Part shown: one piece after another, positions 25,131-42,682 of the stretch
Numbering within the stretch: position 1 is the stretch's first letter
How the letters are laid out: every line of letters starts with the position of its first letter
Source: Candidatus Latescibacterota bacterium
GTDB lineage: Bacteria > Latescibacterota > UBA2968 > UBA8231
Direction of reading: 5' to 3'
Assembly: GCA_965203355.1 (NCBI GenBank)
Contig: OZ241889.1
Location: 928,001 to 992,000 of the forward strand
Length of the DNA stretch: 64,000 nucleotides
Program-made: the position numbers and the translations under genes
Notes under the pieces: generated by a model
Databases searched by the model: none
What the model was told of the DNA's origin: nothing
What the model saw: the letters and a program-made list of their open reading frames with translations, nothing else

Positions 25131-25131
25131 G

Positions 25132-28254: not shown

Positions 28255-28266
28255 GGGCCGATCCTC

Positions 28267-29433
28267 TCAGCGTTGGACGACCACGACTTTCGCATCGTGG
28301 GCTAGGTTGTAATGCCCGGATACGATGAGGTCTTCGCCGGCTTCTATTCCTTGGGTGATCTCGATAAAGTCGTCGTTTTCGAGGCCGGTCTTCACGTAGC
28401 GCCATTGGGCTAGCCCGCCTTGGTGAACGAATACTAGCTTGCGGTCGTCGCGGATGAGGAGTGCATCGCGCGGAATGAGCAGCCGCTGCTGAAAGGCTTC
28501 AATGCCTATTTCGAGCCGGGCGAACATGCCGGGTTTGATGCGCTGGCCGGGGTTGTCCATTTGGATCAAGATGCGGCAAGTCCCGCTCTCGCTATCTACC
28601 ACCGGACTGATGGCTTTGACCGCGCCCGCAAACGGGTCGTCGGGGTATGCGTGAAGCGCGATAGCGGCTTGAGCACCGACTTGCAATAAGCGCAACTCGC
28701 TTTCGAGGATGCTGACTTCGAGCAGCAGTGGGTCGAGTGCCAAAAGCTGCATCAGGGTCTGTCCTTGGGTGACCCAAGTACCAGCGGTTACTTCCACTTC
28801 GGTTACGACGCCGGCAAAAGGTGCTGTAATAACGGCGTCTTTGAGGTTGAGCTCGGCTTGCGCTAGGGTGAGTCGAGCGCGGGTTAAGCCCGTAGTGCTG
28901 GCGATCCATTCTTTGGGGGTGCCGCTTGCAAATAGCGCTAGGGCTTCTACATCGTTGATGTTGGTGCTATCCGCTTTGGTCTCGATGAGGTCGCGTGCTT
29001 GATGCCCGCGATCCAGTTGGTTGCTCAGCAGGGCGATGGAGGCGTACTCTCGCAGTGCCTGCGTCATTTGATCTTTTGCCTGTAGATAAGCGATGTTATA
29101 ACGTTTTACGTCCAATTCCAAGATGGTGTCGCCTTTGCTGACAAAGCGACTTTCCTCGACGTTGAGGCGGCGCACTTGGCCCGCTACTTGGGGGACGATG
29201 GCGGTTTCCTTCTTGGCCTTAAAAACTCCTGTTGAGGTAATTTTCTGCACGAGGGTGCGGGGCTGAATCGTTTCTATGGCGACCGGAGTGTTGGGTGGTT
29301 CAAGTTCGGGGAGGGTTTCGAGGGATTCGCCGCGGGGATTTTGCGATGGCGCGGAATCGCTGAAAATCGCAAACAATAGGACGAGTAGTCCAAGCGCGAT
29401 AGCGATGTATAGTAGCTTTTTTAATGTCTTCAT
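28267..29433 (-). CDS. RND periplasmic adaptor (MFP)
   Basis: N-terminal TM, VSKGD..L.LD, ITAPFAGVV, IKPGMFA, V.TGL. Confidence 0.95.
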   Translation of the reverse strand: MKTLKKLLYIAIALGLLVLLFAIFSDSAPSQNPRGESLETLPELEPPNTPVAIETIQPRTLVQKITSTGVFKAKKETAIVPQVAGQVRRLNVEESRFVSKGDTILELDVKRYNIAYLQAKDQMTQALREYASIALLSNQLDRGHQARDLIETKADSTNINDVEALALFASGTPKEWIASTTGLTRARLTLAQAELNLKDAVITAPFAGVVTEVEVTAGTWVTQGQTLMQLLALDPLLLEVSILESELRLLQVGAQAAIALHAYPDDPFAGAVKAISPVVDSESGTCRILIQMDNPGQRIKPGMFARLEIGIEAFQQRLLIPRDALLIRDDRKLVFVHQGGLAQWRYVKTGLENDDFIEITQGIEAGEDLIVSGHYNLAHDAKVVVVQR

Positions 29434-29484: not shown

Positions 29485-30495
29485 TTACGATCTGCTCAAG
29501 GTTTGAGAGTGGGTGGCTAGGGCTTCTAGGGCATTCCGTTCTTGAACGGCGATAGCTTGAATTCGCGCCTGGATGCGCGGTATCAGCCTTGGTGTATACT
29601 TGGTTGCGCCTTTGAAGCACAGGTTTTTGGCGACAAACCAACTCTGAGAAATCGACTCGAATTCTCGGCCGAGAGTGCTTAGGCCGTCGAGGCCGCAGAG
29701 CCGACTGGCATAGTTGAGGAAAGTGCCATGTCCCTCTCTGTTTAGGGCGACATCGAGGAACAATTCAGTGCATTGGTTCAGGCGCGTTTTGATAGCTTGC
29801 CTTTCGCATTCCGCCCATGTTCCTACATCCTCGGCGAGTTGCTCAATCCCGACTACGCCTTGGACGCGCTCGGCTTGTGAATTGGTTGCAGACATACTCG
29901 CGAAATTGCGTTGCAAAATGGCGGCCACATGGCGCGAATGTACGCTAGGCGGCTCGTCCGGCATGTCTAGCAAACACCAGTTAAAATAGGGCCTGTTCCC
30001 GCCAGAAACAGCCCGCGTATCCCAACAGGCAAGGAAGAGGTCAAGTGGGATATCTCGCGCCGAAGGCGTCCATGGCGAAGGATCGATCAAGTGGACGGTG
30101 CTCGCCTTATCGTCGTACCTGGCGACGATAATCTGGTGTATTGAGTGTCGCTGGCGCGGAAAGAGTCCGGCTCCAGCTAGATGGAAGACATCTATATTGA
30201 TAGCTACGGGCGTACCTGCATCCAATCGTTTTTTGACTTCGTTTAACGCCGACCTGCCATCATCAGAAGTATAGCTCAATGCCTCAATGCCGAACGGCTG
30301 GAGCATGGCAAAGAGGGAAGCCGGACGACTCTTGATGCTGAACGATTCGCCTCTAGTGTAAAAAAAGTCCCAGTTGTAAAAAACGGGCAGCGACGGTTCC
30401 CATTGGTAGTAGCGCAGCAAGCTGTCTAATACGACATGGAGGCAGTTGTAGTGCCGATTGGTGCAGAAGGGAATACCACTAATGCGCTTTTTCAT
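29485..30495 (-). CDS. BtrH-like protein (papain/C39-like fold), putative acyltransferase
   Basis: 'NCL' Cys, 'GTPVAINIDVFHL', 'HSIHQIIVARYD', 'HLIDP' triad pattern; helical C-domain; ATGA-coupled. Confidence 0.7.
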   Translation of the reverse strand: MKKRISGIPFCTNRHYNCLHVVLDSLLRYYQWEPSLPVFYNWDFFYTRGESFSIKSRPASLFAMLQPFGIEALSYTSDDGRSALNEVKKRLDAGTPVAINIDVFHLAGAGLFPRQRHSIHQIIVARYDDKASTVHLIDPSPWTPSARDIPLDLFLACWDTRAVSGGNRPYFNWCLLDMPDEPPSVHSRHVAAILQRNFASMSATNSQAERVQGVVGIEQLAEDVGTWAECERQAIKTRLNQCTELFLDVALNREGHGTFLNYASRLCGLDGLSTLGREFESISQSWFVAKNLCFKGATKYTPRLIPRIQARIQAIAVQERNALEALATHSQTLSRS

Positions 30496-31124
30496 GACGA
30501 TCCTTCCGCCCGGCACAAGGTCAACGCGAAGATGTGCATGGATGGATTATCCGGCGTCACGAGATGCGACAGCAGCAGGGTTTCTTCTAATTCAATCACC
30601 TGATGCCAGAGACCCGCTTCAATATGCGTTTCATACATTTGGCGGCCTTTGCCCGGTGGGGCTATGCCAAAGAGGAATACGTGGGGAATGAGACCATCAG
30701 GAGTAATCAGTTGGCCCGTAAATGCCTCGATCTCTCCGTATTGAAGCCCATTGTAGTGCGAGGCGTCGCTGAGTGCGAGGGTCGCTTGGGCGCAGGAACC
30801 GTCCGGTGAGTGCAACCACACCGATTCGGCATTCGCACGCCAATCGCATATTCCAAGCACATGGAGTGCGCGGTAGCATCCCACTGGCAGCGGAATGTCT
30901 TGAGCCTCGCAGGCGATGTTATCGGGCACACCGTCTCTTTTATCTGGGAACGCAAACCTTGTGCCGCTGCAATCGACGGTCGCCCCCGACGGTGGAAGAC
31001 CCCCTGACCGAAAGATCGTCCCCATCCCATCGAGTCCGTCGGCGGCAGGGTCGCAGGAAGATGCGATGCCCGCGTTGTTGAAATAGGGGGCTAGGTCAAC
31101 AGTTATTTGGCCATTGGCTTGCAT
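30492..31124 (-). CDS. hypothetical beta-sandwich protein in peptide cluster
   Basis: 'VDLAPYFNN.GI', 'DNIACEAQDI.LP...Y..LHVLG', 'PDNPSMHIFALTL'; recalls accessory domains of glycoside hydrolases. Confidence 0.6.
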   Translation of the reverse strand: MQANGQITVDLAPYFNNAGIASSCDPAADGLDGMGTIFRSGGLPPSGATVDCSGTRFAFPDKRDGVPDNIACEAQDIPLPVGCYRALHVLGICDWRANAESVWLHSPDGSCAQATLALSDASHYNGLQYGEIEAFTGQLITPDGLIPHVFLFGIAPPGKGRQMYETHIEAGLWHQVIELEETLLLSHLVTPDNPSMHIFALTLCRAEGSS

Positions 31125-31145
31125 ATCTGTTCCCACCTGTGTTAC

Positions 31146-31418
31146 TCAGTGCATAGGCGATTGAAGTGCCAATCGCTTTTCTATATATGAGGTCAAGGAA
31201 CGCACTGAATCGAATAGGTCAATCCGCAGGTCTTCGTCTTCTACTTCAAATCCGAACTCTTCTTCAAGGGCAAAGACGATTTCTAACGCGGCAATGGAAT
31301 CGGCACCAAGGCCCTCGCCAAAGAGGGACTCGTCATCGGCGATGTCTTCGGGATTGATCTTGAGTTGGAGTCCTTGGACAAGGGCTTTTTTTACTCGTTG
31401 AGCTATGTCGTCGCGCAT
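31146..31418 (-). CDS. acyl carrier protein
   Basis: GLGADSIAALEIVFALEEEFG phosphopantetheine-Ser motif; acidic, 90 aa. Confidence 0.9.
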   Translation of the reverse strand: MRDDIAQRVKKALVQGLQLKINPEDIADDESLFGEGLGADSIAALEIVFALEEEFGFEVEDEDLRIDLFDSVRSLTSYIEKRLALQSPMH

Positions 31419-33319
31419 GGCCTCTCCTCTTCTTCTTCGGCAAAGTGATCGATGACCACCTCGACAGCCCGATGGACATCCACTTCGTCTGCAATAGATA
31501 CCGCCGGAAGACTGAACGTCTGTTCCAAGCGATTCAGTTTGTCGCGCACTTCGGCCGCGGTCATGGGCTGCGGTTTAATAGAGATTCGGCCATAGGCTGT
31601 GCGAATGTGTTTCGCCTGATCGCTCATGGCCAACAAGAGCGTAGGTGCTTGGCACAAGGCGCGAATGCCATCGATGGTGTCTTGAATGTAGTCGTTGGGA
31701 TCTACACTGTTGACTACTAATAGGCAGGCTTGGGGCTTGACCCCCATTAGGAACGCAAGGGTAGGTAGCGTCTGGGTCTGCTGTTCTTCCACGTTGTAAG
31801 GCACTGTGCCGGATTGGGTGCCGACTAAAATTAGGTCTGGCCGTTTGCGGTGGTTGATTTCTCGCATCTTGGCGTCGAGGTAGGGAGCGTAGTAGTCCAG
31901 CGGCATCTCAATTGACGCCGCGTAACCCATGGGGAACGCGCAGTCCATGCCGAAGAGGGCCGAGTGGTGTTCGGTGCCGACTTGTCCCACTCGGTAGCCT
32001 AGTTCTAGCAACCGGCGGCGCAGGGCGAGTTGCAGGGAAAACTTCCCCTGCTGCGAACTGGTGCCTGCGACCGCTAAGACGGGCACATCGACTGGGGGCC
32101 ATTGCTCCGATGAAAGGAGGGTTTGTCGTATTTCTTTGGAGGACAGGGCTGGATAGTATAACCGCAAGCCCTTGGCTTCAGCCTTTTCGTACAGATCGGC
32201 GTACTGTTCGTGCGGCAGTGCCAAGAGGCTGAAGATGTGGACGCCTTGGTCTATGGCGGTTTGGACTGCTTCGCGCAATAGGTCTCTTTTGCGGATGAGA
32301 CTCAGTTGGTCCATATAGCCTAAAATAAGGGTGTCGGCTCCCTGTAGGGCGGCGGCCAGACTGGGCGCAATGGACAGGCCCGCTGGCGGCAGGCCAATGG
32401 CCTCGCCAGCATCTTGACCGACCAAGCCCTTGCCGACCGGATCGCCTACGCCGACGATCTCAAAGCCGAGCAGGTCGCGCCCGCGCACCAGCGAGTGCAT
32501 CTCCTTGTTGTAGGGATAGAGGGCGGCTTTCTGAATGTAGGTGAACGAGCCCTCGGGACGGGGCCGAGAAGCGATTTTAGGTGCGGGGGTACGGGTGGGT
32601 TCGGGAAGAGCGTGAGCGCGGAGGATTTCGCGCACCTGTGCTAGGCTCGCGCCGGGCTTGGCTTGGCGGATGAGGGCAAGCAGGCCGGTGATGTGGGGCG
32701 CGGCAAAGCTGGTGCCCGCCAGCATGATCTCAGGCGGCTCCAGCCAACACACTCGCTGGAGGTCGCCCCGGGCTATGCACTCGACAGCGTCTCCTTGGCG
32801 ATAGTTGTAATCGTATAGATTCTGCAATGGCCCCGCGCCCACGCCGATGACTTGGGGCAAGTGGGTTGGATAGCTCTCGCGGCCTTCTTGGTGATCGGCG
32901 GCGACCATTAGAATGCCTTGATCGGCGGCTTGTTGGCAGACGCGGGCCAAAGTGTCTCGCATCGTTACCTCGGTGGTGCCCAAGCTCAGGTTGATGATGT
33001 CCATACCCTGTTCTATGGACCATTTGATGGCTGCGATTAGCAAGCGGCTATCGGCTTGAAGCGATTCGTCGAAGATACGCACACTATACAGAGCCGCTTG
33101 GGGTGCTTTGCGGCGAATGATACCGGCGCAGGCCGTGCCGTGGCCGGCGCAATCGGCGTGGGCGGCACTGTAGTGAATCACGCTGTCTCTGTCTGGCCCG
33201 ATAGTGATGGCGATACCACCAGCCACCGGGCCGATTTTGGGATGATTGGGTACGAGGCCGCTATCGACGATGGCGATCTTGACGCCGTGGCCGGTCTGGT
33301 CGGCAAAGGGAAAGCTCAT
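31403..33319 (-). CDS. S8 subtilisin-like peptidase fused to DUF1611/TIGR04066-like domain
   Basis: IVDSG, GHGTACAG, GTSFAAP triad; then 'AALYPYNKEMHSLVR' and P-loop-like 'VAGTSSQQGKFSLQL', 'GQVGT', 'DLILVGTQSG'; no signal peptide. Confidence 0.85.
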   Translation of the reverse strand: MSFPFADQTGHGVKIAIVDSGLVPNHPKIGPVAGGIAITIGPDRDSVIHYSAAHADCAGHGTACAGIIRRKAPQAALYSVRIFDESLQADSRLLIAAIKWSIEQGMDIINLSLGTTEVTMRDTLARVCQQAADQGILMVAADHQEGRESYPTHLPQVIGVGAGPLQNLYDYNYRQGDAVECIARGDLQRVCWLEPPEIMLAGTSFAAPHITGLLALIRQAKPGASLAQVREILRAHALPEPTRTPAPKIASRPRPEGSFTYIQKAALYPYNKEMHSLVRGRDLLGFEIVGVGDPVGKGLVGQDAGEAIGLPPAGLSIAPSLAAALQGADTLILGYMDQLSLIRKRDLLREAVQTAIDQGVHIFSLLALPHEQYADLYEKAEAKGLRLYYPALSSKEIRQTLLSSEQWPPVDVPVLAVAGTSSQQGKFSLQLALRRRLLELGYRVGQVGTEHHSALFGMDCAFPMGYAASIEMPLDYYAPYLDAKMREINHRKRPDLILVGTQSGTVPYNVEEQQTQTLPTLAFLMGVKPQACLLVVNSVDPNDYIQDTIDGIRALCQAPTLLLAMSDQAKHIRTAYGRISIKPQPMTAAEVRDKLNRLEQTFSLPAVSIADEVDVHRAVEVVIDHFAEEEEERPCATT

Positions 33320-33816
33320 GGGTTTGTCTCCGCATCTATGGCGATCGGGAATCCGGCTGCCTGCCAAGCCGGCCAACCGCCCGTCAGAACATAGCCGTCA
33401 TCGCGAATCGACTCTTTGACCAGCCGTTTGGCGAGCGCGTAGCTACTCCGGCAACCGCCTCCTGAGCAGTAGGTGATGACTTGGACATTAGCCGGATAAG
33501 CCGCTAACATCTGACGCAGGCTATTTGTGGAAGCATGGGAAGGAACACGTAAAGCACCGGGGATGTGACCGGCCTCATAAGAGTGTGCTGAGCGTGCGTC
33601 CACAAACACGGCGTCGCCGCGGTCGAAAGCCTGTTTGGCCTCGGTCGCAGAGAGCCGGTGAATGCCCTGCATTGCGGAGGAACTAAGCGTTGTATTGGCC
33701 TCTAGGACATCCAACGACAGAGCGGGCTGCACGGTATAGAACCAGATGGCGTACACGCCGCCGGCCAGTACGGCCAGCGAGAGGATTAGACCCATTCTGA
33801 TCAGAAGGCGACTCAT
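33316..33816 (-). CDS. membrane-anchored rhodanese-domain protein
   Basis: N-terminal TM, FVDARS...Y.AGHIPGA, TYCSGGGC, LTGGWPAW. Confidence 0.9.
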   Translation of the reverse strand: MSRLLIRMGLILSLAVLAGGVYAIWFYTVQPALSLDVLEANTTLSSSAMQGIHRLSATEAKQAFDRGDAVFVDARSAHSYEAGHIPGALRVPSHASTNSLRQMLAAYPANVQVITYCSGGGCRSSYALAKRLVKESIRDDGYVLTGGWPAWQAAGFPIAIDAETNP

Positions 33817-33827: not shown

Positions 33828-35561
33828 CTAGGCAGCCTCTTGTTGATGGTGAACAAACTGTGCGTAATAGCCCGACCTTTGGCGCAGCACGCCCGGCGGC
33901 CCCTGCTCGACTACGTGCCCGTTAGACAAGCAGATCACTTCATCTACGCCTTGTACCGCACTGAGTCGGTGGCTGATTAAGAGAATCGTTTTGTCGTGGC
34001 ATAGGTGCTGGATATGCTGAAAGAGGACTTCTTCGCTTTCAGCGTCGAGTGCGGCGGTGGCTTCGTCCAAAATCATCAGGTCCACCGGCTGCAACAGGGT
34101 ACGGGCTAGGGCGATGCGCTGCTTTTGGCCACCGGAGAGTTGTACGCCCTGTTCGCCGATTTTCGTCTGCCGGTCCAAGCCATCCAGTCCTACTTGATTG
34201 ATCACATTTTCGACTCTGGTCGGTTCGCACTTGAAGTTGCCGTAGTGAATATTGTCCCAGACCGTGTCGTTAAATAGGTGGACTTGTTGGCTGACGAAAC
34301 CAATGTGTGCTCTCAGTTCACGTAGGCTGATCTTTTCAAGTGGTGTACCATCTATAAGGATGCGGCCTTGATCGGGCTGATAGAACCCGCACAACAGATT
34401 CGCCAGCGTCGTCTTGCCGCTGCCACTCATGCCAACTAAGGCGTAACTCTTGCCCTTGACGAGCTTCAGGTTCACGCCTTGTAAGACAGGTTGGTCGTCG
34501 AAGCGGAAGTGGATGTCTTGCAATTCAATGGCGCGTTGATAGACGAAGGGTTTGCGCCCGGTGTGAATCGCCTCTTGAGTGGGCAACTGCATGAATTCCA
34601 GCACTCGGCGCATGGAGACTAAGCCGCGCACTAAGTCCATGTACAGATTGTGCAGTCCGCTCACCGGGCCAAACAGACGCGAGGTGTACTGTATAAAGGC
34701 AATGAGCGTTCCGATTGTCATGGCGCCCTGCATTACTTGATAGCCGCCCCAGCCCATGATGAACGCAGGCGTTAGAGCCACTAACCCCGCCGAGATGTTG
34801 TGCATAGACGAGGAGTATAGCACGTTGCGCATGGAGAACGAGATCAAGTCGTTGAGGGCCGATCTAAAGAGATACTTCTCGTGGCCATCGCTGTTGGAGA
34901 GTTGAATCAGCGGGATGTGGCTAAACCGCTCGATGGAATAGCTGGAGAGTTTGGCACTTTGTTGCTGAATGGATTCGACGACCTTTCTGATTTTAGGCTG
35001 AAAGTGGAGTAGGTTGGCCACAAACAGGGGGAGGACCAACACAGAGAGCAGAAACAAGGTGACGTCTAGCCAGCACAAGATCGCCACGAGGCCGATTAAG
35101 GTTAGTACACTATGTAGGAAACTCAGGGCACTTGCCGTCAGCACCGATTGGATTACGCCCACGTCGCTGTTGAGGCGAAAGACGATGTCGCCGACGGTCT
35201 GTCGATTGTGGAAGCTGAGCGGCAAGCGAATGAGGTGTTGGAATAACTCGACGCGGATGTTGCGGACGATGCGTCTGCCGGCCCAAGCATACAGATAATC
35301 AGAAGTGAAGGATAGGATCAAGTGGGTGATGGTGATGCCGATCAAGATGGCGAGGGCAACCAACAGCGGTTGGAGCTGTTTGGCTGGTACAATCTTATCA
35401 ATGATGATTTTTAAGATGTAAGGGGGTGCGAGTGAGCCGATTGTGATGCACAATACGCAGAATAGTACCACAATCCCCTGAAACCAGTACGGAGTTAGAA
35501 AGGGTAGAAAGAAGCCGATGGCGGAACGGGCTGTTTTGGGCGCAGACATGAGAAACCTCAA
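33828..35561 (-). CDS. ABC exporter (permease + ATPase, no C39 domain)
   Basis: TM domain, GMSGSGKTT, LSGGQKQR, ILDEAT, ISHR. Confidence 0.95.
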   Translation of the reverse strand: MRFLMSAPKTARSAIGFFLPFLTPYWFQGIVVLFCVLCITIGSLAPPYILKIIIDKIVPAKQLQPLLVALAILIGITITHLILSFTSDYLYAWAGRRIVRNIRVELFQHLIRLPLSFHNRQTVGDIVFRLNSDVGVIQSVLTASALSFLHSVLTLIGLVAILCWLDVTLFLLSVLVLPLFVANLLHFQPKIRKVVESIQQQSAKLSSYSIERFSHIPLIQLSNSDGHEKYLFRSALNDLISFSMRNVLYSSSMHNISAGLVALTPAFIMGWGGYQVMQGAMTIGTLIAFIQYTSRLFGPVSGLHNLYMDLVRGLVSMRRVLEFMQLPTQEAIHTGRKPFVYQRAIELQDIHFRFDDQPVLQGVNLKLVKGKSYALVGMSGSGKTTLANLLCGFYQPDQGRILIDGTPLEKISLRELRAHIGFVSQQVHLFNDTVWDNIHYGNFKCEPTRVENVINQVGLDGLDRQTKIGEQGVQLSGGQKQRIALARTLLQPVDLMILDEATAALDAESEEVLFQHIQHLCHDKTILLISHRLSAVQGVDEVICLSNGHVVEQGPPGVLRQRSGYYAQFVHHQQEAA

Positions 35562-36250
35562 ATATCGGTCAAAATGTGGTTGCCGTTTATGATTTCTAGT
35601 AGAGACACGCCCTCCAGTTTGCTCAGCGGCGAGTCAGTGAAGCTAGCGGTTTTAACGTTGCGTGCTGGTAGGTGGGTAGAGACGAGTTTCCAGAAGAAGA
35701 GTTTGGTGAATTGTTCTCTGCCTGCTAATGGGTAGTGGTATTGGATAATGGTTTGGCGTTCGTCGATGAGAAAGATCGCCGGCGTCTGCTCAAAGAAATC
35801 TGCATACTTTTTTTGATCGTTCACTCGCATAGTTCCCAAGTGGTATTTGAGCTTGAATGCTCGTGCAAATTGAGCGGCAGCCGATGGCATAGAGGACAGG
35901 GCGTATATGGGTAACTGGTCGGGGTCTTCTATATGGTCATACACATGTTGTAGGGTCTCTAACACCAGCTCTAAGCATGGCTGACAGGAGGTGGGATCGA
36001 AGAGTAATACTAAGCCACCTTGAGTTTTGGCGAAGTCAGTGTGAGCGGTCTCGCCATCGACTTGGAAGGAAATCACGGGGAAAGACTGACCGATCCAGCG
36101 GTCGGATTTGAAGATGTTGATTACATAATCGCGGTAGTTTTGCACATCCACGACATAGGTCTTACTGAACCAAGCTACAACGACGGTCAAAGCGACGAGT
36201 TGTAAGAGGTTCGTAGCAGCCAATAGCTTTATTAAGGTCCTTTGTCTCAT
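35558..36250 (-). CDS. membrane-anchored thioredoxin-fold protein (CxxC)
   Basis: N-terminal TM, 'LLFDPTSCQPCL', 'QTPAIFLID' cis-Pro-type motif. Confidence 0.7.
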   Translation of the reverse strand: MRQRTLIKLLAATNLLQLVALTVVVAWFSKTYVVDVQNYRDYVINIFKSDRWIGQSFPVISFQVDGETAHTDFAKTQGGLVLLFDPTSCQPCLELVLETLQHVYDHIEDPDQLPIYALSSMPSAAAQFARAFKLKYHLGTMRVNDQKKYADFFEQTPAIFLIDERQTIIQYHYPLAGREQFTKLFFWKLVSTHLPARNVKTASFTDSPLSKLEGVSLLEIINGNHILTDI

Positions 36251-36314: not shown

Positions 36315-37529
36315 CTAATGAGGTTGAAAGACAAGTTCGTGGATCTCCACGGTGCCATTGGAGTCCTCTTCTCTTCCCGGTAGAGGCGATTGATAGGAGT
36401 ATAGACAACCGTCCCAATGCGTAAGGTCGTTTCCAATAAAAGATTGCATAGCCTCTTCAAAAGCATAGGCTTTGATCCGGTTTGGTGTCTTTAGGTCATA
36501 GACGATTCCCTCCCATTTAATCGCGCCTCCGGCTAGAAAGTCAGAGATAGAGGAGGGATGCATGTAGGCAACAAGAATGTACTGGTCCTGCACGAGCACT
36601 ATAGATTGCACTTCACTCATTTTACGGTCCAATTGGCTTATTTCCTCGGTGGTTTTATCCTCAAAGCTGTAGTAGCGCTCCGGCAAGGGACGATACTTCT
36701 CTAGTTGATAGCCGAACTGACGTATCAGCCGACCTGTGTCCGGATCGATTGCTGTGACTTTGTAGTCATTTCTTTTTATATAGTACAACTGATGTCGAGT
36801 CGGACTATAGGCTAAAGAACCGCTGGCCATGAAAGATGGTTGGCCAGTGAACAATGGAATGCGATAAATAGGTTCGTATTTTGCCGAGGTTGCCGGTTCG
36901 AACCGCTGCAATTCTACGATATGGCCACTATCGCTAGTTGAACGGGTCACTCTCGTCAAGTACACTGCGCCGTCTCGTCCAGTGACAATCCGAGCCGCCG
37001 ACGACGTACTAAAACGGGGAGACCGGTCTAAGAACTGCCCCTGCCGATCATAGCGGTGTAAGTATCCTGCCGATCTATCGAGAATGTAAAGATGGCCTTG
37101 GGGGGTTATGGCCATATTGTTAGGGGTACCATATTCTCCCGGTCCCATTCCTCGCTTTCCAATGGATCGGATATACTGGCCGTCCGAGATGCTGAATTCA
37201 AAGGCTTGGTCAACGATAAAGTCCGAGAGTAACAGAGTGCCCTCTGGGGAGAATCCCATCCAGTGCACACCGCTGATGGCGGGGGTATCCTCGTCATAAG
37301 CCAATTCGACTTTCCCTTTCAAGACCAGGTCGACCTGGCCGACATACTCGACCGGCACTTGGGGGATGGTCGACTCGTCAGATGCTCCTGAGCTATCATC
37401 TGCGGACCATGCGACACTTTCCTTGATGTTGTCCCATAGCCCGGCGTCGGCTGATTGAACCGGGAAGGCGAGGACGCTGGCGACGAACAGGAGGCGGCTA
37501 TTGAGCAGGATGGAGTGTGCGGTTTTCAT
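36315..37529 (-). CDS. secreted 6-bladed beta-propeller (NHL-like), copy A
   Basis: Signal peptide ending ADA; 'IGKRGMGPGEY..P..MAI...G.LYILD' blade motif; AAGGAG RBS. Confidence 0.85.
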   Translation of the reverse strand: MKTAHSILLNSRLLFVASVLAFPVQSADAGLWDNIKESVAWSADDSSGASDESTIPQVPVEYVGQVDLVLKGKVELAYDEDTPAISGVHWMGFSPEGTLLLSDFIVDQAFEFSISDGQYIRSIGKRGMGPGEYGTPNNMAITPQGHLYILDRSAGYLHRYDRQGQFLDRSPRFSTSSAARIVTGRDGAVYLTRVTRSTSDSGHIVELQRFEPATSAKYEPIYRIPLFTGQPSFMASGSLAYSPTRHQLYYIKRNDYKVTAIDPDTGRLIRQFGYQLEKYRPLPERYYSFEDKTTEEISQLDRKMSEVQSIVLVQDQYILVAYMHPSSISDFLAGGAIKWEGIVYDLKTPNRIKAYAFEEAMQSFIGNDLTHWDGCLYSYQSPLPGREEDSNGTVEIHELVFQPH

Positions 37530-37620
37530 AAGGCGGTTCTCCTTGACCAACAGTTTCAACGAAGACTTGTACCTTGTTGGGCGTCAGTGAATTGTATGCG
37601 ATTTCGTCAACCACGGTTGC

Positions 37621-37656
37621 AGTACTCCGACCCCGGTTAGTTGGGGCCGGAGTACT
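37621..37656 (-). promoter_or_regulatory. stem-loop 3' of precursor A
   Basis: mRNA AGUACUCCGGCCCC-8 nt loop-GGGGUCGGAGUACU; no U tract. Confidence 0.75.
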
Positions 37657-37688
37657 TAGGACCGGGGTATGGGTTCTGGCGTAGGGCA

Positions 37689-37895
37689 TTACTTCACGAA
37701 ACAGACCTTAGTGTCGCCTTCGCCGCAGTCGTTTCCTTCTGCGTAATGGCATCCGTAATACTTGGCAAGGCAGGGGTCGCCACCGCAGGTGGTATTTTCC
37801 ACGCGGTACGGTGCCACGTCCCATTCGCCTTCCGTCACGTAGGCTTGGATGAGGAACCTACGCCTCACTGGGGTTTTCTTGCTGAGATTTGTCAT
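37689..37895 (-). CDS. Cys-rich precursor peptide A (68 aa)
   Basis: AAGGAG RBS; leader MTNLSKKTPVRRRFLIQAY; core with 5 Cys; paralog of 39360..39569. Confidence 0.85.
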   Translation of the reverse strand: MTNLSKKTPVRRRFLIQAYVTEGEWDVAPYRVENTTCGGDPCLAKYYGCHYAEGNDCGEGDTKVCFVK

Positions 37896-38007
37896 GGGAT
37901 TACTCCTTGGCGAAGCTCATAAATGAGCAGTGTGTGAAAAAGGAAACCAGAACCCATACCTTCTGGTGTGCAAAAGATAGATCGCCGACATGATAGGCTG
38001 GTGTGGT

Positions 38008-39264
38008 TTAATGAAGTTGAAAGACGGGTTCGTAGATCACCACGGTGCCATTGGAGTCCTTTTCCCGCCCCGGTAGCGGTGATTGATAGGAGTATAAACG
38101 ACCATTCCAATGCGTAAGTTCGTTTCCAATGAAACGATGAAAACGAACTATGCTGCTATCCGTAGGGTCAGGATATGATTGAATAGCCTCTTCAAAAGCA
38201 TAGGCTTTGATCTGGTTTGGTGTCTTTAGGTCATAGACGATTCCTTCCCATTTGAGTGCGTTATTGGCTAAATCGTCGAAGACGGAGGGATGTAGGTAGG
38301 TAACGAAAATGTACTGGTCCTGCACGAGCACCATAGATAGCACAGAACTCATTTCACGGTCCAATTCGCTTATTTCCTCAGTGGTTTTAACCTCAAAGTT
38401 GTAGTAGCGCTCTGGTAAGGGACGATACTTCTCTAGTTGATAGCCGAACTGATGTATCAGGCGACCTGTCTCTGGGTCGATTACTGTGACTTTGTAATCA
38501 TTTGTTCCCATGTAATACAACTGATGTCGCGTCGGGCTGTAGGCTAAACGGGTGTAACCGGACATTTTTTGGGAGATGAAAGACGGTTGGTTAGTGGACA
38601 ATGGAGTGCGATAGATGGGTTCGTATTTTGCCGAGGTTGCCGGTTCGAGCCGCTGCAATTCTATGATATAACCACTAGGTGTCCTAACTGATCTCGCTAA
38701 GTACACTGCGCCGTCTCGTCCGGTGACAATCCGAGCCCCTTTAGAAAAGTGAGGAGACCGGTCTAAGAACTGCCCCTGCCGGTCATAGCGGTGTAAGTAT
38801 CCTAACCCTTTATCGAGAATATAAAGATAGCCTTGGGGGTCTATGGCCATATTGGTAGGGAAACCATATTCTCCCGGTCCCGGTCCGTACTTTCCAATGG
38901 AGCGGATGTACTGGCCGTCCGCGATGCTGAATTCAAAGGCTTGGCGACCGACAGCATCCGAGAGTAGCAGAGTGCCTTCTGGGGAGAATCCCATCCAACC
39001 CACATTGCCGATGCCGGGGGTATCCTCGTCATAAGCTAGCTCGACTTTCCCTTTCAAGACCAGGTCGACTTGGCCGACATACTCGACCGGCACTTGGGGG
39101 ATGGTCGGCTCGTCAGATGCTCCTGAGCTATCATCTGCGGACCATGTGACACTTTCCTTGATGTTGTCCCATAGCCCGGCGTCGGCGGGTTGAACCGGGA
39201 AGGCGAGGACGCTGGCGACGAACAGGAGGCGGCTATTGAGCAGGATGGAGTGTGCGGTTTTCAT
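38008..39264 (-). CDS. secreted 6-bladed beta-propeller (NHL-like), copy B
   Basis: Close paralog of 36315..37529; 'IGKYGPGPGEY'. Confidence 0.85.
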   Translation of the reverse strand: MKTAHSILLNSRLLFVASVLAFPVQPADAGLWDNIKESVTWSADDSSGASDEPTIPQVPVEYVGQVDLVLKGKVELAYDEDTPGIGNVGWMGFSPEGTLLLSDAVGRQAFEFSIADGQYIRSIGKYGPGPGEYGFPTNMAIDPQGYLYILDKGLGYLHRYDRQGQFLDRSPHFSKGARIVTGRDGAVYLARSVRTPSGYIIELQRLEPATSAKYEPIYRTPLSTNQPSFISQKMSGYTRLAYSPTRHQLYYMGTNDYKVTVIDPETGRLIHQFGYQLEKYRPLPERYYNFEVKTTEEISELDREMSSVLSMVLVQDQYIFVTYLHPSVFDDLANNALKWEGIVYDLKTPNQIKAYAFEEAIQSYPDPTDSSIVRFHRFIGNELTHWNGRLYSYQSPLPGREKDSNGTVVIYEPVFQLH

Positions 39265-39291
39265 AAGGCGGTTCTCCTTGACCAAAATTGC

Positions 39292-39327
39292 AGTGCTCCG
39301 ACCCCGGTTGGTTGGGGCCGGAGCACT
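39292..39327 (-). promoter_or_regulatory. stem-loop 3' of precursor B
   Basis: Same hairpin as 37621..37656 with a compensatory A-U to G-C change. Confidence 0.75.
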
Positions 39328-39359
39328 TAGGACCAGGGTATGGGTTCTGGCGTAGGGAA

Positions 39360-39569
39360 TTACTTCGTGAAGTGGACCTTAATATCTCCTTCGCTGCACT
39401 CACTTTTCTCTGGGTCCCTATGGCATCCGTAGTACTTGGCAAGGCAGGGCTCGCCATCGCAGATAGCACGTGTCACGAGGAACGGATTCACGTCCCACTC
39501 GCCTTCCATCGCGTAGGCTTGGATGAAAAGCCTGCGCCTCACTGGGGTTTTCTTGCTGAGCGTTTTCAT
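39360..39569 (-). CDS. Cys-rich precursor peptide B (69 aa)
   Basis: AAGGAG RBS; leader MKTLSKKTPVRRRLFIQAY; core with 4 Cys, CxxxxCLAKYYGC. Confidence 0.85.
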   Translation of the reverse strand: MKTLSKKTPVRRRLFIQAYAMEGEWDVNPFLVTRAICDGEPCLAKYYGCHRDPEKSECSEGDIKVHFTK

Positions 39570-39679
39570 AGGATTACTCCTTGGCGAAGCTCATAAATGA
39601 GCGGTGTGTGAAAAAGGAAACCAGAACCCATACCTTCTGGTGCACAAAAGATGAATCGCCGACATGGTAGGCTGTGTAC

Positions 39680-39800: not shown

Positions 39801-40110
39801 CAGGCTGTGCTCCTTTTGTTATTAATAAAAGTAGCGATTGTCGTGGCACTTCGGTATCGGGTGATCACCTGATTTTTGACTAATTCTTATCGGGTGATCA
39901 CCTGATTTTTTGAAAAAACGCCTGATGTGATCTTGTCTGGCGGCGAGTAACACGTGGATGTTTGAGAATATGGTTTTCATTAGACTGTGCTCCTTTTGTT
40001 ACTAATAAAAGTAGCGATTGTCGTGGTGCTTCGGTATCGGGTGATCACCTGATTTTTGACTAATTCTTATCGGGTGATCACCTGATTTTTTGAAAAAAAT
40101 GCCTGATATG
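39771..40110. repeat. 180-bp-period tandem duplication of promoter, RBS and first codons
   Basis: 39771..39930 nearly identical to 39951..40110. Confidence 0.9.
39856..40086. promoter_or_regulatory. four 18-bp palindromic boxes ATCGGGTGATCACCTGAT
   Basis: At 39856, 39889, 40036, 40069; pairs 33 bp apart; upstream of the peptide operon and beside the response regulator gene. Confidence 0.75.
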
Positions 40111-40288
40111 GGCTTGTAGCCGAGGTTTGGCGGACTTGTCTGTGCGCCTTTGGACTCCGCTCGTGCGCCAAGAGCGTAGGCATAGCTAGGTGAATCTACT
40201 TAGTACAGGCTGTAAGGTACAGGGCGCAGAGAAAGAGGGAGGGCGAGGCCGTTCTGGGGACTAGTGGTGATTGGGACTGCCACGCCGC

Positions 40289-40942
40289 TTAGCGAGGCTG
40301 GTCCTCTTCGTCCATTAGTCCCTCTCTGATCGCGTACGCTGTCAGTTTGGCCACGCTGTGCAGGTCGAGCTTATTCATTATGTGCTGGCGGTGGGTGCCG
40401 ATGGTCTTTTTGCTCAGATAGAGTTCTTCGGCTATTTGCGCCGTTGTTTTTCCTTGGGCGACGCATCGCAGCACCATGTGCTCACGCGACGTCAGGGTAG
40501 AAAGTGGTTTGCTGGAGGCATCAGAATGACGCGCCTTGCTGGTGTTGATGGGATTAGTCAGTTGCGAACTCACGTACTGGCGACCAGCTTCCACCTCCCT
40601 GAGTGCTTTCACTAACTCGTTGATGAAGTTCGTTTTCAGCAGATACGCCCAGCCTCCCGCTTCGAACAGGCCATCCACAAATCGCTTATCTGCGTGTTCC
40701 GACAGCGCGACGAACTTCACCTGCGGATGCGTCGTCCGTATCTGGCGTGTTACCTCGAGGCCGCTCAGGTCGGGTAGCCCCATATCCACGATCACAAGGT
40801 CGGGGTGGTAGGAGCGGATCAAGTCAATAGCCGTGCGACCGTCGGATGCCTCGCCGACGACTTCAATATCGCTTTCTTGTTCGAGCCGTGTGTGCAGGGC
40901 TTGGCGCACCATAGTGTGGTCTTCTACCAGAAAAATCTTCAT
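40289..40942 (-). CDS. NarL/LuxR family response regulator
   Basis: VEDH, IVDMGLP phospho-Asp, LTSRE...G.TT.QIAEEL.LS.KTI.THR..IMNKL. Confidence 0.95.
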   Translation of the reverse strand: MKIFLVEDHTMVRQALHTRLEQESDIEVVGEASDGRTAIDLIRSYHPDLVIVDMGLPDLSGLEVTRQIRTTHPQVKFVALSEHADKRFVDGLFEAGGWAYLLKTNFINELVKALREVEAGRQYVSSQLTNPINTSKARHSDASSKPLSTLTSREHMVLRCVAQGKTTAQIAEELYLSKKTIGTHRQHIMNKLDLHSVAKLTAYAIREGLMDEEDQPR

Positions 40943-42012
40943 GGGGAATGGCCCTCCTCTTCAGCTAAAGAACGCGGAAGCACTAGTAGGCAACGCGTAC
41001 CTTTACCGGGCGTTGATTGGATGGTCAAATAGCCACCGATATGGAGCAGATGCTCTTGAATGCTGAACAGACCGAAGTGGCTGGCTCGGTCCATCTGCTC
41101 TAGACGCACTGTATCAAAGCCCTTACCCTCGTCTTCTATCACCACCTGCAACTGGGCTACATCTCGCCGCAAGGAGACGGTGGCTTGGTCTGTGTTGGCG
41201 TGCCGTGAGACATTGATCAGCAACTCGCGAATGGACCTGTACACTAAGCCGCGTATGTCGTGGTTGTGTATCTCCCACTTGTCCTCGGCTTCCACGCGCA
41301 CGGTCAATCCATACTGGGAATGGAGGCGGTCGCCGAGGGCCTCTAAGCCTGGTACGAACCCTATGCCGTAGAGCACGGGTGAACTGCTGTCGGATGTCAT
41401 GGATCGGATGTGATGAGCCATTTCGTCCATGTTCTTCTCCAATGTATCGATCAAGGCTTCTCGTTCGGGGTCGTCGGAATGCCGCAGTGAATTGATCTCA
41501 ACCTTCGACAGCACCAATAGCTGCCCGATGGAATCGTGCAGATCGGCCCCAAGGCGCACCCGCTCGCGCTCTCTGTCAATTAAGAGTCTGGTCGCCAGTG
41601 CCTGCAACTTCTGGATGTGTCTTTCCATGCGCTTGTGCTTGCTGATTTTGCGGATGCTACCTTGATAACCTATGAGGGTGCCGTTTGCGGCTCGCCGAAC
41701 CGAGACCGTTAGGAACGCATCGAATTGGTGCCCGTTACCCGTTGTAAAAGCCGCTGTAAAGTCGCACACAACCTCTGCTTGCTCAATCTGTTCCTGAAAC
41801 CGCTTGTAATCATCTAAACGGGTGTAGAGGCGGCGGATGTTGGAGCCGATCAGGTCGGCGCGTTCGTGGGCAAATAGGGTACTGGCGGCAGGATTGGCAT
41901 CGACGATGGTCCCATCTCGCGCAGCGATGAAGAAGGCATCTGGCGACGCTTCAAACAGGTCGCGATAGAGTTTTGGGTCTCGCCTCAACTTTCTTGGCTC
42001 AGGCTTGCACAT
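40939..42012 (-). CDS. cytoplasmic PAS sensor histidine kinase (HisKA_3)
   Basis: PAS domain, ERVRLGADLHDSIGQ, ELLINVSRHA, EDEGKGF, FGLFSI, PGKGT; no TM. Confidence 0.9.
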   Translation of the reverse strand: MCKPEPRKLRRDPKLYRDLFEASPDAFFIAARDGTIVDANPAASTLFAHERADLIGSNIRRLYTRLDDYKRFQEQIEQAEVVCDFTAAFTTGNGHQFDAFLTVSVRRAANGTLIGYQGSIRKISKHKRMERHIQKLQALATRLLIDRERERVRLGADLHDSIGQLLVLSKVEINSLRHSDDPEREALIDTLEKNMDEMAHHIRSMTSDSSSPVLYGIGFVPGLEALGDRLHSQYGLTVRVEAEDKWEIHNHDIRGLVYRSIRELLINVSRHANTDQATVSLRRDVAQLQVVIEDEGKGFDTVRLEQMDRASHFGLFSIQEHLLHIGGYLTIQSTPGKGTRCLLVLPRSLAEEEGHSP

Positions 42013-42055
42013 AGCTGCTCCTCGTGATAGAGTAGGCCCGCTAGTCGCCCCTAAA

Positions 42056-42682
42056 CTATGTTGGTGTCTCTCGCCGCGCCAACTTTTGCCATGCCGTTCG
42101 CGCCGCTCGATAGCTTGCCTGCGTGTCCACATCCACAAAGATGCCCTCGTCCTCAACGGGCACTTCGACGACGCTGGCCGCGTTTTTTGCCAAGACCGGC
42201 CGCGCGCCCCGATCGCCCGTCAACGCGAGTAAAGCATCTCGATGGGCCCGGCCGATCGCTACGGGATGGCCGCGCTGCCCAGCGCACACTGGCACGGCGA
42301 TCGCCGCTCTACTTTTTAACGCCTCGGCGACCTTTAGCATTGTCGTACCCGCTATCTGCGGCATGTCTCCTAGGGCCAAGAAGTAGCCTTGCTCGCCGAT
42401 GGCCGCTTCCACGCCCACTCGGATAGAAGAGGCCATCCCGGCGGCAAAATCGGGGTTGTGTACCAACCGCACGGGATAGCGGCGCAACCTTTCCTCTACC
42501 GCTACCCGCTGATGCCCTGTCACCACGACCACCTCCCCCAAACCCACCTCGCAAACCCGCTCCACCACAGCTTGGAGGACGCACTGCTCCTGCCAAGGCA
42601 GCAGCAACTTGTTGGCCTTTTTCATCCTAGCGGAACGCCCCGCCGCCAATACGATCCCGCTAAGGTCTGCGAGTCTGATCAT
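42056..42682 (-). CDS. mocA: molybdenum cofactor cytidylyltransferase (MocA-like)
   Basis: VLAAGRSARM..NKLLL, GMASSI..G, LGDMP, GHPV, GDRGAR, DVDT. Confidence 0.8.
   Translation of the reverse strand: MIRLADLSGIVLAAGRSARMKKANKLLLPWQEQCVLQAVVERVCEVGLGEVVVVTGHQRVAVEERLRRYPVRLVHNPDFAAGMASSIRVGVEAAIGEQGYFLALGDMPQIAGTTMLKVAEALKSRAAIAVPVCAGQRGHPVAIGRAHRDALLALTGDRGARPVLAKNAASVVEVPVEDEGIFVDVDTQASYRAARTAWQKLARRETPT

What the first reader, a model, noticed from the sequence alone, without database searches (positions are those of the whole stretch)
37689..39569. Two paralogous precursors with conserved basic leader ending IQAY and a Cx4C-LAKYYG-Cx7-8C core
Seen: A is MTNLSKKTPVRRRFLIQAY|VTEGEWDVAPYRVENTTCGGDPCLAKYYGCHYAEGNDCGEGDTKVCFVK. 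B is MKTLSKKTPVRRRLFIQAY|AMEGEWDVNPFLVTRAICDGEPCLAKYYGCHRDPEKSECSEGDIKVHFTK. Four Cys, EGEWDV, LAKYYG and EGDxKV are fixed while the intervening loops vary, and A has a fifth Cys. Both have an AAGGAG RBS. The MxxLxKK...IxAY leader matches my recollection of CLI_3235-type leaders. Inference: cleavage occurs after AY, giving a ~50-residue core with two disulfide or other sulfur crosslinks.
Basis: partly seen in the sequence, partly recalled or inferred. Interest (0 to 1): 0.85.

Follow-up and report, generated by a model that had tools for sequence, protein, structure and literature searches.

The report
Leader peptides paired with periplasmic propellers
Two real small genes encode cysteine- and tryptophan-containing peptides with a shared 19-residue leader; they belong to a rare, unnamed peptide family in Latescibacterota that always sits next to a secreted propeller protein and a protease-based maturation and export gene set, so they look like precursors of a new processed, exported peptide.

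Summary
Both ORFs exist exactly as described, on the minus strand (37689-37895 and 39360-39569), each with an AAGGAG ribosome-binding site. They lie in a 1.7-kb tandem duplication that also copies a secreted NHL-type six-bladed propeller gene.

Six-frame searches found relatives in 12 of 167 Latescibacterota genomes. All 14 loci have a propeller gene beside the peptide. Most also carry a Trx-like protein, an ABC exporter, a rhodanese, an S8 protease fused to a TIGR04066/DUF1611 domain, an ACP, a BtrH-like protein and an MFP plus two RND pumps.

The leader (M-x-x-L-x-K-K ... [IVL]-x-[AT]-Y) is conserved. It also precedes unrelated cores at other S8-TIGR04066 loci, which supports cleavage after AY.

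Family-wide, only one Trp and two Cys are fixed (a third Cys in 11 of 14).

The peptides do not match TIGR04065. The window cluster has no radical SAM enzyme, though one relative has one.

Best reading: a radical-SAM-less, Gram-negative variant of the CLI_3235/Ccp-type maturation system, in which the propeller is the peptide's periplasmic partner. The chemistry is still inferred.

The parts
39360..39569 (-). Precursor B, 69 aa. Leader is residues 1-19 (39513-39569). Core is residues 20-69 (39363-39512).
   Evidence: ORF. Leader-HMM hit E 3e-12 (it was a seed of that model). Aligned with 13 relatives.
37689..37895 (-). Precursor A, 68 aa. Leader is residues 1-19 (37839-37895). Core is residues 20-68 (37692-37838).
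   Evidence: ORF. 64% identical to B. Aligned with relatives.
37903..37908 (-). AAGGAG ribosome-binding site of precursor A, 7 nt before the ATG.
   Evidence: Read from the sequence.
39577..39582 (-). AAGGAG ribosome-binding site of precursor B, 7 nt before the ATG.
   Evidence: Read from the sequence.
38008..39264 (-). Propeller B: secreted NHL-type six-bladed beta-propeller (DUF5128) with an N-terminal signal peptide.
   Evidence: Pfam PF17170, E 1.9e-11. 78% identical to propeller A.
36315..37529 (-). Propeller A: secreted NHL-type six-bladed beta-propeller (DUF5128).
   Evidence: Pfam PF17170, E 2.3e-10. AF2 model with pLDDT 84. Foldseek finds NHL propellers. Weak complex support with core A.
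37946..37967 (-). Hairpin followed by a U-run in the conserved 5' UTR of precursor A. A twin lies at 39620-39641, upstream of B.
   Evidence: The UTRs are 98/112 identical. A similar stem is seen in L001, L115 and L119. No Rfam match.
39856..40086 (.). Four copies of an 18-bp palindrome, in two pairs spaced 33 bp apart, between the response-regulator gene and precursor B. Candidate operator.
   Evidence: 8 strand-matches against 0.07 expected. The same core palindrome, with 33-bp spacing, lies upstream of the propeller gene in L115.
35558..36250 (-). Membrane-anchored thioredoxin-fold protein with a CxxC motif.
   Evidence: Weak Redoxin/AhpC/Thioredoxin_2 hits, E 0.012-0.02. CQPC is seen in the translation. 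Conserved in relatives.
33828..35561 (-). ABC exporter (permease plus ATPase) without a C39 peptidase domain.
   Evidence: PF00664 and PF00005. Alignments to peptidase-containing bacteriocin ABC models start at profile position 142 of 708.
33316..33816 (-). Membrane-anchored rhodanese.
   Evidence: PF00581, E 1.7e-18.
31403..33376 (-). S8 protease (QhpE-like) fused to a TIGR04066/DUF1611 domain. The likely true start is at 33319.
   Evidence: NF049966 QhpE: 147 bits against a 165-bit cut-off. TIGR04066: 113 bits against 200. Asp, His and Ser of the catalytic triad are invariant in 16 of 16 sequences. The C-terminal domain model (pLDDT 88) matches DUF1611 structures, including the N-acetyltransferase DgcN, 7xrj.
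31146..31418 (-). Acyl carrier protein with the DS phosphopantetheine motif.
   Evidence: PF00550, E 2.5e-12. Only generic ACP models hit; TIGR04069 is not among the hits at E <= 0.01.
30492..31136 (-). 214-aa protein of no known family.
   Evidence: No Pfam or NCBIfam hit. The Atlas returns only hypothetical-protein clusters. Conserved in 6 of the loci.
29485..30516 (-). BtrH-like protein (BtrH_N plus DUF4872).
   Evidence: PF14399, E 2.5e-11, and PF16169, E 1.6e-8.
21759..29433 (-). RND adaptor (28267-29433) and two RND permeases (25132-28254 and 21759-25154).
   Evidence: Found downstream of the cluster in every relative whose contig reaches that far.
40289..42156 (-). LuxR-type response regulator (40289-40942) and PAS histidine kinase (40939-42156).
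   Evidence: A response regulator also lies upstream in L115-L119 and L121.

Best explanation
A and B are genuine precursor peptides of a previously unnamed family that is restricted, as far as I searched, to Latescibacterota.

Shown:
- A basic 19-residue leader ending in AY is conserved. It is followed by a variable acidic core with one fixed Trp and two fixed Cys, plus a third Cys in most members.
- Every family member lies next to a gene for a secreted NHL propeller.
- The flanking genes are conserved: Trx-like protein, ABC exporter, rhodanese, S8-TIGR04066 fusion, ACP, BtrH-like protein, and an MFP with two RND pumps.

Inferred, in order of the proposed pathway:
1. The cytoplasmic S8 domain recognises the leader and cuts after the Tyr.
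2. The fused DUF1611-type domain, the ACP and the BtrH-like protein transfer an acyl or aminoacyl group to an amine of the core, most likely the new N-terminus.
3. The ABC exporter moves the core to the periplasm.
4. The anchored Trx-like protein and the rhodanese set the state of the Cys residues (disulfides, or a sulfur-based link).
5. The cognate propeller binds the peptide, as a tailoring enzyme, a chaperone or an immunity protein.
6. The RND pump expels it.

The two-component system, with palindromic sites upstream, would control expression. The product is most likely a secreted bioactive peptide, either antimicrobial or a signal.
For: Real genes:
- The ORFs and their RBS are in the sequence.
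- A profile of the 4 closest members found further full-length hits in a six-frame search of 167 Latescibacterota genomes (sequences).
- The 14-row profile gave 13 of 167 genomes at E <= 0.01, ten of them at E <= 1e-16.
- The new hits in G057, G146 and G050 again lie next to propeller and Trx-like genes.

Leader:
- M1, L4 and Y19 are invariant.
- The same leader, ending in [AL]-Y and followed by Ser, Asp or Glu, precedes unrelated cores at other S8-TIGR04066 loci: L004, L006, L008 (two copies) and L010.
- A leader HMM run over 4,395 small ORFs (12,533 start variants) hit 13 distinct precursors at E 2.1e-12 to 1.2e-08. Twelve of these were its own seeds and one, L116:17322-17540, was new. The next unrelated hit was at E 0.31.

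Context:
- Synteny holds across the window, L001-L003 and L115-L121.
- The peptide-propeller pair is duplicated as a unit in the window and in L116.

Enzymes:
- The S8 catalytic triad is invariant in 16 of 16 sequences, and the best named model is QhpE.
- QhpE removes the leader of QhpC in the cytoplasm before ABC export (PMC7876137, passages).
- The C-terminal domain has the DUF1611 fold. N-acetyltransferase DgcN (7xrj) ranks 2nd, E 1.3e-11, TMq 0.54.
- The S8 fusion, the ACP and a BtrH_N-like protein recur together even where the core has no Cys (L004 and L006; the L004 BtrH_N hit of 26.5 bits is below the gathering score).
- The published CLI_3235-family product SacP23 has a blocked N-terminus (PMC10731318, passages).

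Propeller binding:
- Complex prediction of propeller A (30-404) with core A (20-68) gave weak support. The median score was 0.51 (runs 0.02, 0.51, 0.57) and the best control was 0.02.
- The tool's calibration: the mark was reached by 58 of 80 solved complexes and 2 of 110 mismatched pairs. At 0.60 or under, only 7 of those 80 solved complexes reached it, and so did both mismatches that passed.
- The runs agree in at least 14% of contacts, and the partner's pLDDT is at least 42.
Against: - There is no expression or product evidence. No RNA run holds the locus (recorded under Tried and rejected).
- The peptides match no curated precursor family.
- No enzyme with a known peptide-crosslinking chemistry is in the window cluster. 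The only CxxxCxxC ORF in the window is MoaA-like, about 25 kb away.
- The acyl-transfer step rests only on the fold and family names of three proteins.
- The TIGR04066 and QhpE hits are both below their curated cut-offs.
- One of the three complex runs scored 0.02, and the tool itself rates the pass as weak.
- The propeller's fold matches are generic NHL domains with no shared active site identified.
- L116 and L120 lack some accessory genes (rhodanese, BtrH-like; L116 also the Trx-like protein and the ACP), so those steps are not universal.
- dN/dS between A and B is below 1 in the core (0.83). This gives no proof of diversifying selection.
Confidence: 0.55

Rival explanations
1. The peptide is not a free natural product. 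It is a small, leader-processed subunit, or a peptide-derived cofactor carrier, that assembles with its propeller in the periplasm. This would parallel quinohemoprotein amine dehydrogenase, where QhpC (a small Cys/Trp peptide) is processed by QhpE, exported by the ABC transporter QhpF, and joins the QhpB subunit.
For: - The best named model for the S8 domain is QhpE (E 4.6e-43).
- An ABC exporter without a peptidase domain is present.
- Peptide and propeller genes are adjacent in 14 of 14 loci and are duplicated as a pair.
- One Trp and two Cys are invariant in an acidic core.
- The complex prediction gave weak support: 0.51 against a best control of 0.02, with the caveats and counts given under the best explanation.
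- The QHNDH pathway is as read in PMC7876137.
Against: - The peptide profile does not match any PDB chain, QhpC included (best E 0.12, a herpesvirus protease).
- The window has no QhpD-type radical SAM enzyme, and I found no flavoprotein monooxygenase or haem subunit among the cluster genes annotated.
- The QhpE hit is below its cut-off (147 against 165 bits).
- Core loops and lengths vary much more than expected for a catalytic subunit.
- A dedicated RND efflux system is conserved downstream, which suggests the peptide leaves the periplasm.
Confidence: 0.15
2. One reading: A and B are CLI_3235-family (TIGR04065) bacteriocin precursors whose core carries two disulfides or radical-SAM-type sulfur crosslinks.
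For: - The system shares a TIGR04066-like domain, an ACP, an S8 protease and an ABC exporter with the CLI_3235-family SacP23 cluster.
- SacP23 also has a predicted 19-aa leader and a Cys-rich core.
- One relative, L002, keeps a radical SAM/SPASM gene just upstream of its propeller.
- L010 pairs the fusion with a PapB/CcpM-like maturase.
Against: - There is no TIGR04065 hit, even at E <= 10, and 0 of 5 fusion-bearing genomes score over the cut-off.
- No radical SAM gene was found in the window cluster, or in the fetched stretches of the other 9 loci scanned. Only L002 of the 11 scanned has one.
- TIGR04069 is not matched by the ACP.
- Only two Cys are family-wide, and L132 has just two.
Confidence: 0.2
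3. The small ORFs are not expressed. They are chance frames in the intergenic DNA of a duplicated propeller gene.
For: - There are no RNA or protein data.
- Only 3 family members are called as proteins in the 1.84-billion-representative library.
Against: - Intact ORFs with the same leader are kept beside propeller genes in 12 other genomes, although the DNA has diverged.
- Conservation follows an amino-acid pattern, with M1, L4, Y19, W25 and C49 invariant.
- Both copies have a strong RBS at the correct spacing.
- Leader dN/dS is 0.46.
Confidence: 0.03

Closest known systems
CLI_3235 / 'Cys-rich peptide' (Ccp) maturation system: TIGR04065 precursor, TIGR04068 radical SAM CcpM, TIGR04066, TIGR04069 ACP-like. 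Its one studied example is SacP23 of Paenibacillus polymyxa (PMC10731318).
   Same: - A short basic leader of about 19 residues precedes a Cys-containing core.
- A TIGR04066-type domain, a carrier protein, a subtilisin-like protease and an ABC exporter are all in one cluster.
- Relatives L002 and L010 still carry a radical SAM/SPASM maturase.
   Different: - The peptides do not match TIGR04065.
- The window cluster has no radical SAM enzyme.
- The protease and the TIGR04066 domain are fused.
- The ACP matches generic ACP models, not TIGR04069.
- A BtrH-like protein, a 214-aa unknown protein, a Trx-like protein, a rhodanese, a secreted propeller and an RND pump are added.
- The host is diderm (Latescibacterota), not Bacillota.
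Quinohemoprotein amine dehydrogenase gamma-subunit maturation (QhpC/D/E/F, PMC7876137).
   Same: - A small Cys/Trp peptide with an N-terminal leader.
- A cytoplasmic QhpE-like S8 protease.
- Export by an ABC transporter that has no peptidase domain.
- A periplasmic protein partner encoded next to the peptide.
   Different: - There is no sequence likeness to QhpC.
- There is no QhpD, QhpG or haem subunit.
- The partner is a six-bladed NHL propeller of unknown function.
- The core is variable.
- RND efflux genes are attached.
ACP-dependent acyl transfer by BtrH in butirosin biosynthesis (recalled, not read here), and the DUF1611 N-acetyltransferase DgcN (PDB 7xrj).
   Same: BtrH_N/DUF4872 and DUF1611 domains sit beside an ACP. 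DgcN is the only characterised DUF1611 enzyme among the fold matches.
   Different: The acceptor here would be a ribosomal peptide. No acyl donor is identifiable. The similarity is at fold and family level only (16% identity to 7xrj).

Membership tests
TIGR04065 (CLI_3235 family bacteriocin precursor) | Score at or above the 26-bit curated cut-off of the 34-position HMM. | tested here: not met
   Neither A nor B hits it at E <= 1 or E <= 10. Six-frame search of 5 genomes with the S8-TIGR04066 fusion: 0 of 5 over the cut-off, best 15.1 bits.
CLI_3235/Ccp maturation system | An adjacent radical SAM/SPASM maturase (TIGR04068, CcpM). | tested here: not met
   No radical SAM ORF in the window cluster; the only CxxxCxxC ORF is MoaA-like at ~12480. 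A radical SAM/SPASM gene is present in relative L002 and in L010.
CLI_3235/Ccp maturation system | A TIGR04066 family protein. | tested here: inconclusive
   The C-terminal 375 residues of the S8 fusion hit TIGR04066 at 113 bits, E 1.5e-32, below the 200-bit cut-off. The fold is DUF1611.
CLI_3235/Ccp maturation system | A TIGR04069 acyl carrier-related protein. | tested here: not met
   An ACP is present, but its 17 NCBIfam hits at E <= 0.01 are generic ACP models. TIGR04069 is not among them.
RiPP precursor (general definition) | A conserved leader and a variable core, encoded next to processing, tailoring and export genes. | tested here: met
   Leader conservation against core variation. Conserved neighbours.
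RiPP precursor (general definition) | A post-translationally modified product exists. | not testable with these tools
   Needs expression and mass spectrometry.
QHNDH (qhp) system | QhpC-like gamma subunit, QhpD radical SAM enzyme, and QhpE at its curated score. | tested here: not met
   The peptide profile finds no QhpC chain in the PDB. No radical SAM enzyme. QhpE model scores 147 bits against a 165-bit cut-off.
Sec or Tat signal peptide (as an alternative reading of the N-terminus) | A hydrophobic h-region after the basic n-region. | tested here: not met
   Read from the sequences. Only about 6 residues separate the RR pair from the acidic core. No signal-peptide predictor was available.

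The most novel reading that the evidence does not exclude
The S8-TIGR04066 fusion, the ACP and the BtrH-like protein form a portable 'cut the leader, then acylate the new N-terminus' module. It serves several unrelated core classes. In this branch, the exported peptide forms a specific, co-duplicating complex with a dedicated periplasmic NHL propeller before RND-driven release. That would be a peptide-maturation route with a periplasmic stage and without radical SAM chemistry, not described for RiPPs in the papers I could search.
Probability: 0.2. Interest if true: 0.8.

Novelty: new variant of a known kind. Interest (0 to 1): 0.62.

Why it matters
The TIGR04066/ACP 'Cys-rich peptide' system has been annotated for years, but nobody has assigned a chemistry to its TIGR04066 and ACP parts. 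These loci bear on that in three ways.

- **A shared leader.** The leader ending in AY travels with the S8-TIGR04066 fusion across unrelated cores. This points to the leader-core junction as the site of action and gives a direct in vitro test.
- **A periplasmic stage.** The strict pairing of each peptide with a secreted propeller, together with thiol-handling proteins and an RND pump, suggests a periplasmic maturation or immunity stage in a diderm candidate phylum that has no cultured representatives to my knowledge (recalled).
- **A missed family.** Only 3 members are called as proteins among 1.84 billion representatives, so annotation pipelines overlook it.

Tried and rejected
Protein searches with the peptides
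- The word-index search with A found only the window's own two peptides.
- The exhaustive HMMER search found one true relative, P0003. It also found one spurious 1360-aa repeat protein, P0004, matched over 18 residues.

Collection scans
- The genome-contig scan with the A/B patterns gave 19 pattern matches, none confirmed.
- The second scan used the S8-fusion alignment instead.

Expression
- No RNA holder was listed for 36300-39700.
- I did not lay reads.

RNA and structure searches
- Rfam on 36000-40400 at E <= 1 found nothing.
- The PDB profile search with the peptide family found nothing meaningful.
- The Atlas search for the 214-aa protein returned only unnamed clusters.

Literature
- 'DUF1611' with 'RiPP': 0 papers.
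- 'DgcN' or 'DUF1611' as word starts returned noise.
- 'DgcN' with 'D-glutamate' as whole words gave 2 papers. I read passages of one and found no enzymology.
- 'CcpM' with 'radical SAM' gave 1 paper that only mentions the name.
- 'BtrH', 'RiPP' and 'acyl carrier protein' gave nothing relevant in the listing.
- Because of these results, the statement that the TIGR04066/ACP chemistry is undescribed rests only. Subscription papers and supplements were not visible.

Ideas considered and set aside
- Tat signal peptide: the RR motif is present, but there is no h-region.
- CTQ-type cofactor: no flavoprotein or radical SAM enzyme.
- dN/dS as a test of diversifying selection: the core value of 0.83 is not decisive.
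- L120 has two propellers but only one recognisable precursor. The DNA between them looks rearranged.
- L117 lacks the ABC and S8 genes and has a split Trx-like gene. I treat it as a decaying cluster.
Full report
OBSERVATION

A is 37689-37895 (68 aa) and B is 39360-39569 (69 aa). They share 44 of 69 residues.

Each ATG is preceded by AAGGAG after a 7-nt spacer.

The two genes are not independent copies. A ~1.7-kb unit holding one peptide gene and one 404/418-aa gene is tandemly duplicated. The larger genes are 78% identical. The 112 nt upstream of each peptide ATG are 98/112 identical and contain a hairpin followed by a U-run.

WHAT SURROUNDS THEM

Read along the minus strand, the window carries these genes:
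- a PAS histidine kinase and a LuxR-type response regulator;
- a 180-nt repeat region with four 18-bp palindromes;
- precursor B, then propeller B;
- precursor A, then propeller A;
- a membrane-anchored thioredoxin-fold protein with a CxxC motif;
- an ABC exporter with no peptidase domain;
- an anchored rhodanese;
- a 657-aa S8 protease fused to a TIGR04066/DUF1611 domain;
- an ACP;
- a 214-aa protein of no known family;
- a BtrH_N/DUF4872 protein;
- an RND adaptor and two RND permeases.

The propellers carry signal peptides and match DUF5128. The AF2 model (pLDDT 84) is a six-bladed NHL propeller. Its nearest solved structures are eukaryotic NHL domains, two Bacteroides proteins of unknown function, and, further down the list, peptidyl-hydroxyglycine lyase and virginiamycin B lyase. 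That list names no function.

IS THE FAMILY REAL?

At the protein level it is almost invisible. The word-index search found only the two window peptides. The exhaustive HMMER search of 1.84 billion representatives found one true relative, P0003.

I therefore searched through the neighbouring genes.

The S8-TIGR04066 fusion is common: 525 clusters at E <= 1e-5 among 8000 scored candidates. One of these is a 74% identical paralogue on the window's own 4.17-Mb contig.

A genome-contig scan with the fusion returned 80 loci:
- Full-length or end-cut fusions occur in Latescibacterota, KSB1, Rosettibacter, Minicystis and two Bacillota lineages (L001-L010, L012, L014-L016; L011 and L013 are further end-cut fragments).
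- The remaining loci (L017-L080) match the S8 domain only.

L001 is 84% identical and syntenic with the window, peptide included. L002 and L003 share the propeller, the Trx-like protein, the ABC exporter, the rhodanese, the fusion and the ACP. Reading their small ORFs showed peptides with the same leader but different cores.

A profile of the four closest peptides was searched in six frames over 167 Latescibacterota genomes and found further members. The 14-row profile then gave 13 of 167 genomes at E <= 0.01. After inspection, 12 genomes hold propeller-associated members.

Counting the window, that makes 14 distinct loci, with L003 and L136 being the same place. Every one of the 14 has a propeller gene next to the peptide. 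L116 has two regulator-propeller-peptide modules. L120 has two propellers but only one recognisable peptide. L117 has lost the ABC and S8 genes.

WHAT IS CONSERVED

In the 14-sequence alignment, M1, L4, Y19, W25 and C49 are invariant, and R11 and C57 are nearly so. C42 is present in 11 of 14.

L132 has just two Cys, at the C49 and C57 positions.

The leader is the most telling part. The same M-x-x-L-x-K-[KP] start, with a [VIL]-x-[ATL]-Y end followed by Ser, Asp or Glu, precedes unrelated cores at other fusion-bearing loci:
- Cys-free acidic 127- and 130-aa peptides (L004 and L006);
- hydrophobic peptides (L008, two copies);
- a Gly/Cys-rich peptide next to a PapB/CcpM-like radical SAM maturase (L010).

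So the leader goes with the S8-TIGR04066 fusion and the ACP, not with the core. The conservation boundary is the Tyr.

A Tyr at P1 fits subtilisin-type preference. That is established knowledge and was not tested here.

MECHANISM

Shown: the leader-core architecture, the conserved neighbourhood, an intact S8 triad, a DUF1611 fold for the fused domain, a DS motif in the ACP, and an ABC exporter lacking a peptidase domain.

Inferred:
- **Cleavage.** The cytoplasmic S8 domain would cut after Tyr19. This parallels QhpE, which removes the QhpC leader before ABC export (PMC7876137, passages).
- **Acyl transfer.** An ACP-dependent transfer to the peptide is suggested by three things. The trio of fusion, ACP and BtrH-like protein recurs across core classes. 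The only characterised DUF1611 enzyme among the fold matches is an N-acetyltransferase (7xrj). The product of the related SacP23 cluster has a blocked N-terminus (PMC10731318).
- **Periplasmic stage.** The Trx-like protein and the rhodanese would handle the thiols.
- **Propeller binding.** Complex prediction gave weak support: median 0.51 (runs 0.02, 0.51, 0.57), best control 0.02, partner pLDDT at least 42, and contact agreement at least 14%. In the tool's calibration the mark was reached by 58 of 80 solved complexes and 2 of 110 mismatched pairs. At 0.60 or under it was reached by only 7 of those 80 solved complexes and by both mismatches that passed.
- **Release.** The RND pump would expel the peptide.

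Whether the propeller is an enzyme, a chaperone, an immunity protein or a stable partner is open.

COMPARISON WITH KNOWN SYSTEMS

The closest described kind is the CLI_3235/Ccp system. In SacP23 the parts are a TIGR04065 precursor, a TIGR04068 radical SAM enzyme, TIGR04066, a TIGR04069 ACP-like protein, a separate subtilisin-like protease and an ABC transporter.

The window system shares that logic but fails the membership tests:
- no TIGR04065 hit;
- no radical SAM enzyme;
- the ACP does not match TIGR04069;
- the TIGR04066 hit is below its cut-off.

L002 keeps a radical SAM/SPASM gene beside its propeller. That suggests this branch descends from a radical-SAM-bearing ancestor, which is an inference.

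The QHNDH analogy is functional only.

VERDICT

It is wrong on family membership and on which core features define the family.

I file it as a new variant of a known but barely characterised kind.

- Supplements and subscription papers were not visible. I recall Haft and Basu 2011 as the paper that defined these TIGRFAMs, and I could not read it.

Noticed in passing
window 39759-40098: Two 160-nt direct repeats (94% identical). Each holds a degenerate copy of the propeller gene's RBS and first codons, plus a pair of 18-bp palindromes 33 bp apart. They look like remnants of earlier module duplications, together with a candidate operator for the adjacent LuxR-type regulator. The same palindrome core with the same spacing lies upstream of the propeller gene in L115.
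   Followed up: partly
window 37946-37967 and 39620-39641 (minus strand): A hairpin with a U-run lies 50-70 nt upstream of each precursor ATG. A comparable stem sits between the propeller stop and the peptide start in L001, L115 and L119. It could be an attenuator or a transcript-processing site that sets the peptide-to-propeller ratio. No Rfam family matches.
   Followed up: partly
same 4,171,184-bp contig, outside the window (protein P0029): A second S8-TIGR04066 fusion, 74% identical to the window's, is encoded elsewhere on the same contig. The organism therefore probably has a second system of this kind. Its context could not be read.
   Followed up: no
L004:7206-7589, L006:7324-7716, L008:3415-3642 and 4194-4415, L010:6478-6879, L137:170-343, L138:1492-1653: Other candidate precursors carry the same type of leader but have unrelated cores. 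These are Cys-free acidic, hydrophobic membrane-like, Gly/Cys-rich, and short Thr/Cys-rich. They lie at, or in genomes with, S8-TIGR04066 fusions.
   Followed up: partly
L002:12563-13915: In L002 a Kelch-repeat propeller gene occupies the place that the 214-aa unknown protein holds in the window cluster. A radical SAM/SPASM gene (L002:1796-3403) precedes the NHL propeller there.
   Followed up: partly
window 18735-20173: An AbiEi-like antitoxin (weak hit, below the gathering score) and an AbiEii nucleotidyltransferase toxin pair, just beyond the far end of the RND genes.
   Followed up: no
window 47494-48675: A 393-aa protein made largely of repeated alanine-, glutamine-, arginine- and asparagine-rich coiled-coil-like units with an N-terminal lipoprotein-like signal. 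The long opposite-strand ORFs over it are probably artefacts of the repeat.
   Followed up: no
window 58001-60000: GC content drops to 0.39-0.46, against about 0.6 in the flanks. This may be foreign DNA.
   Followed up: no
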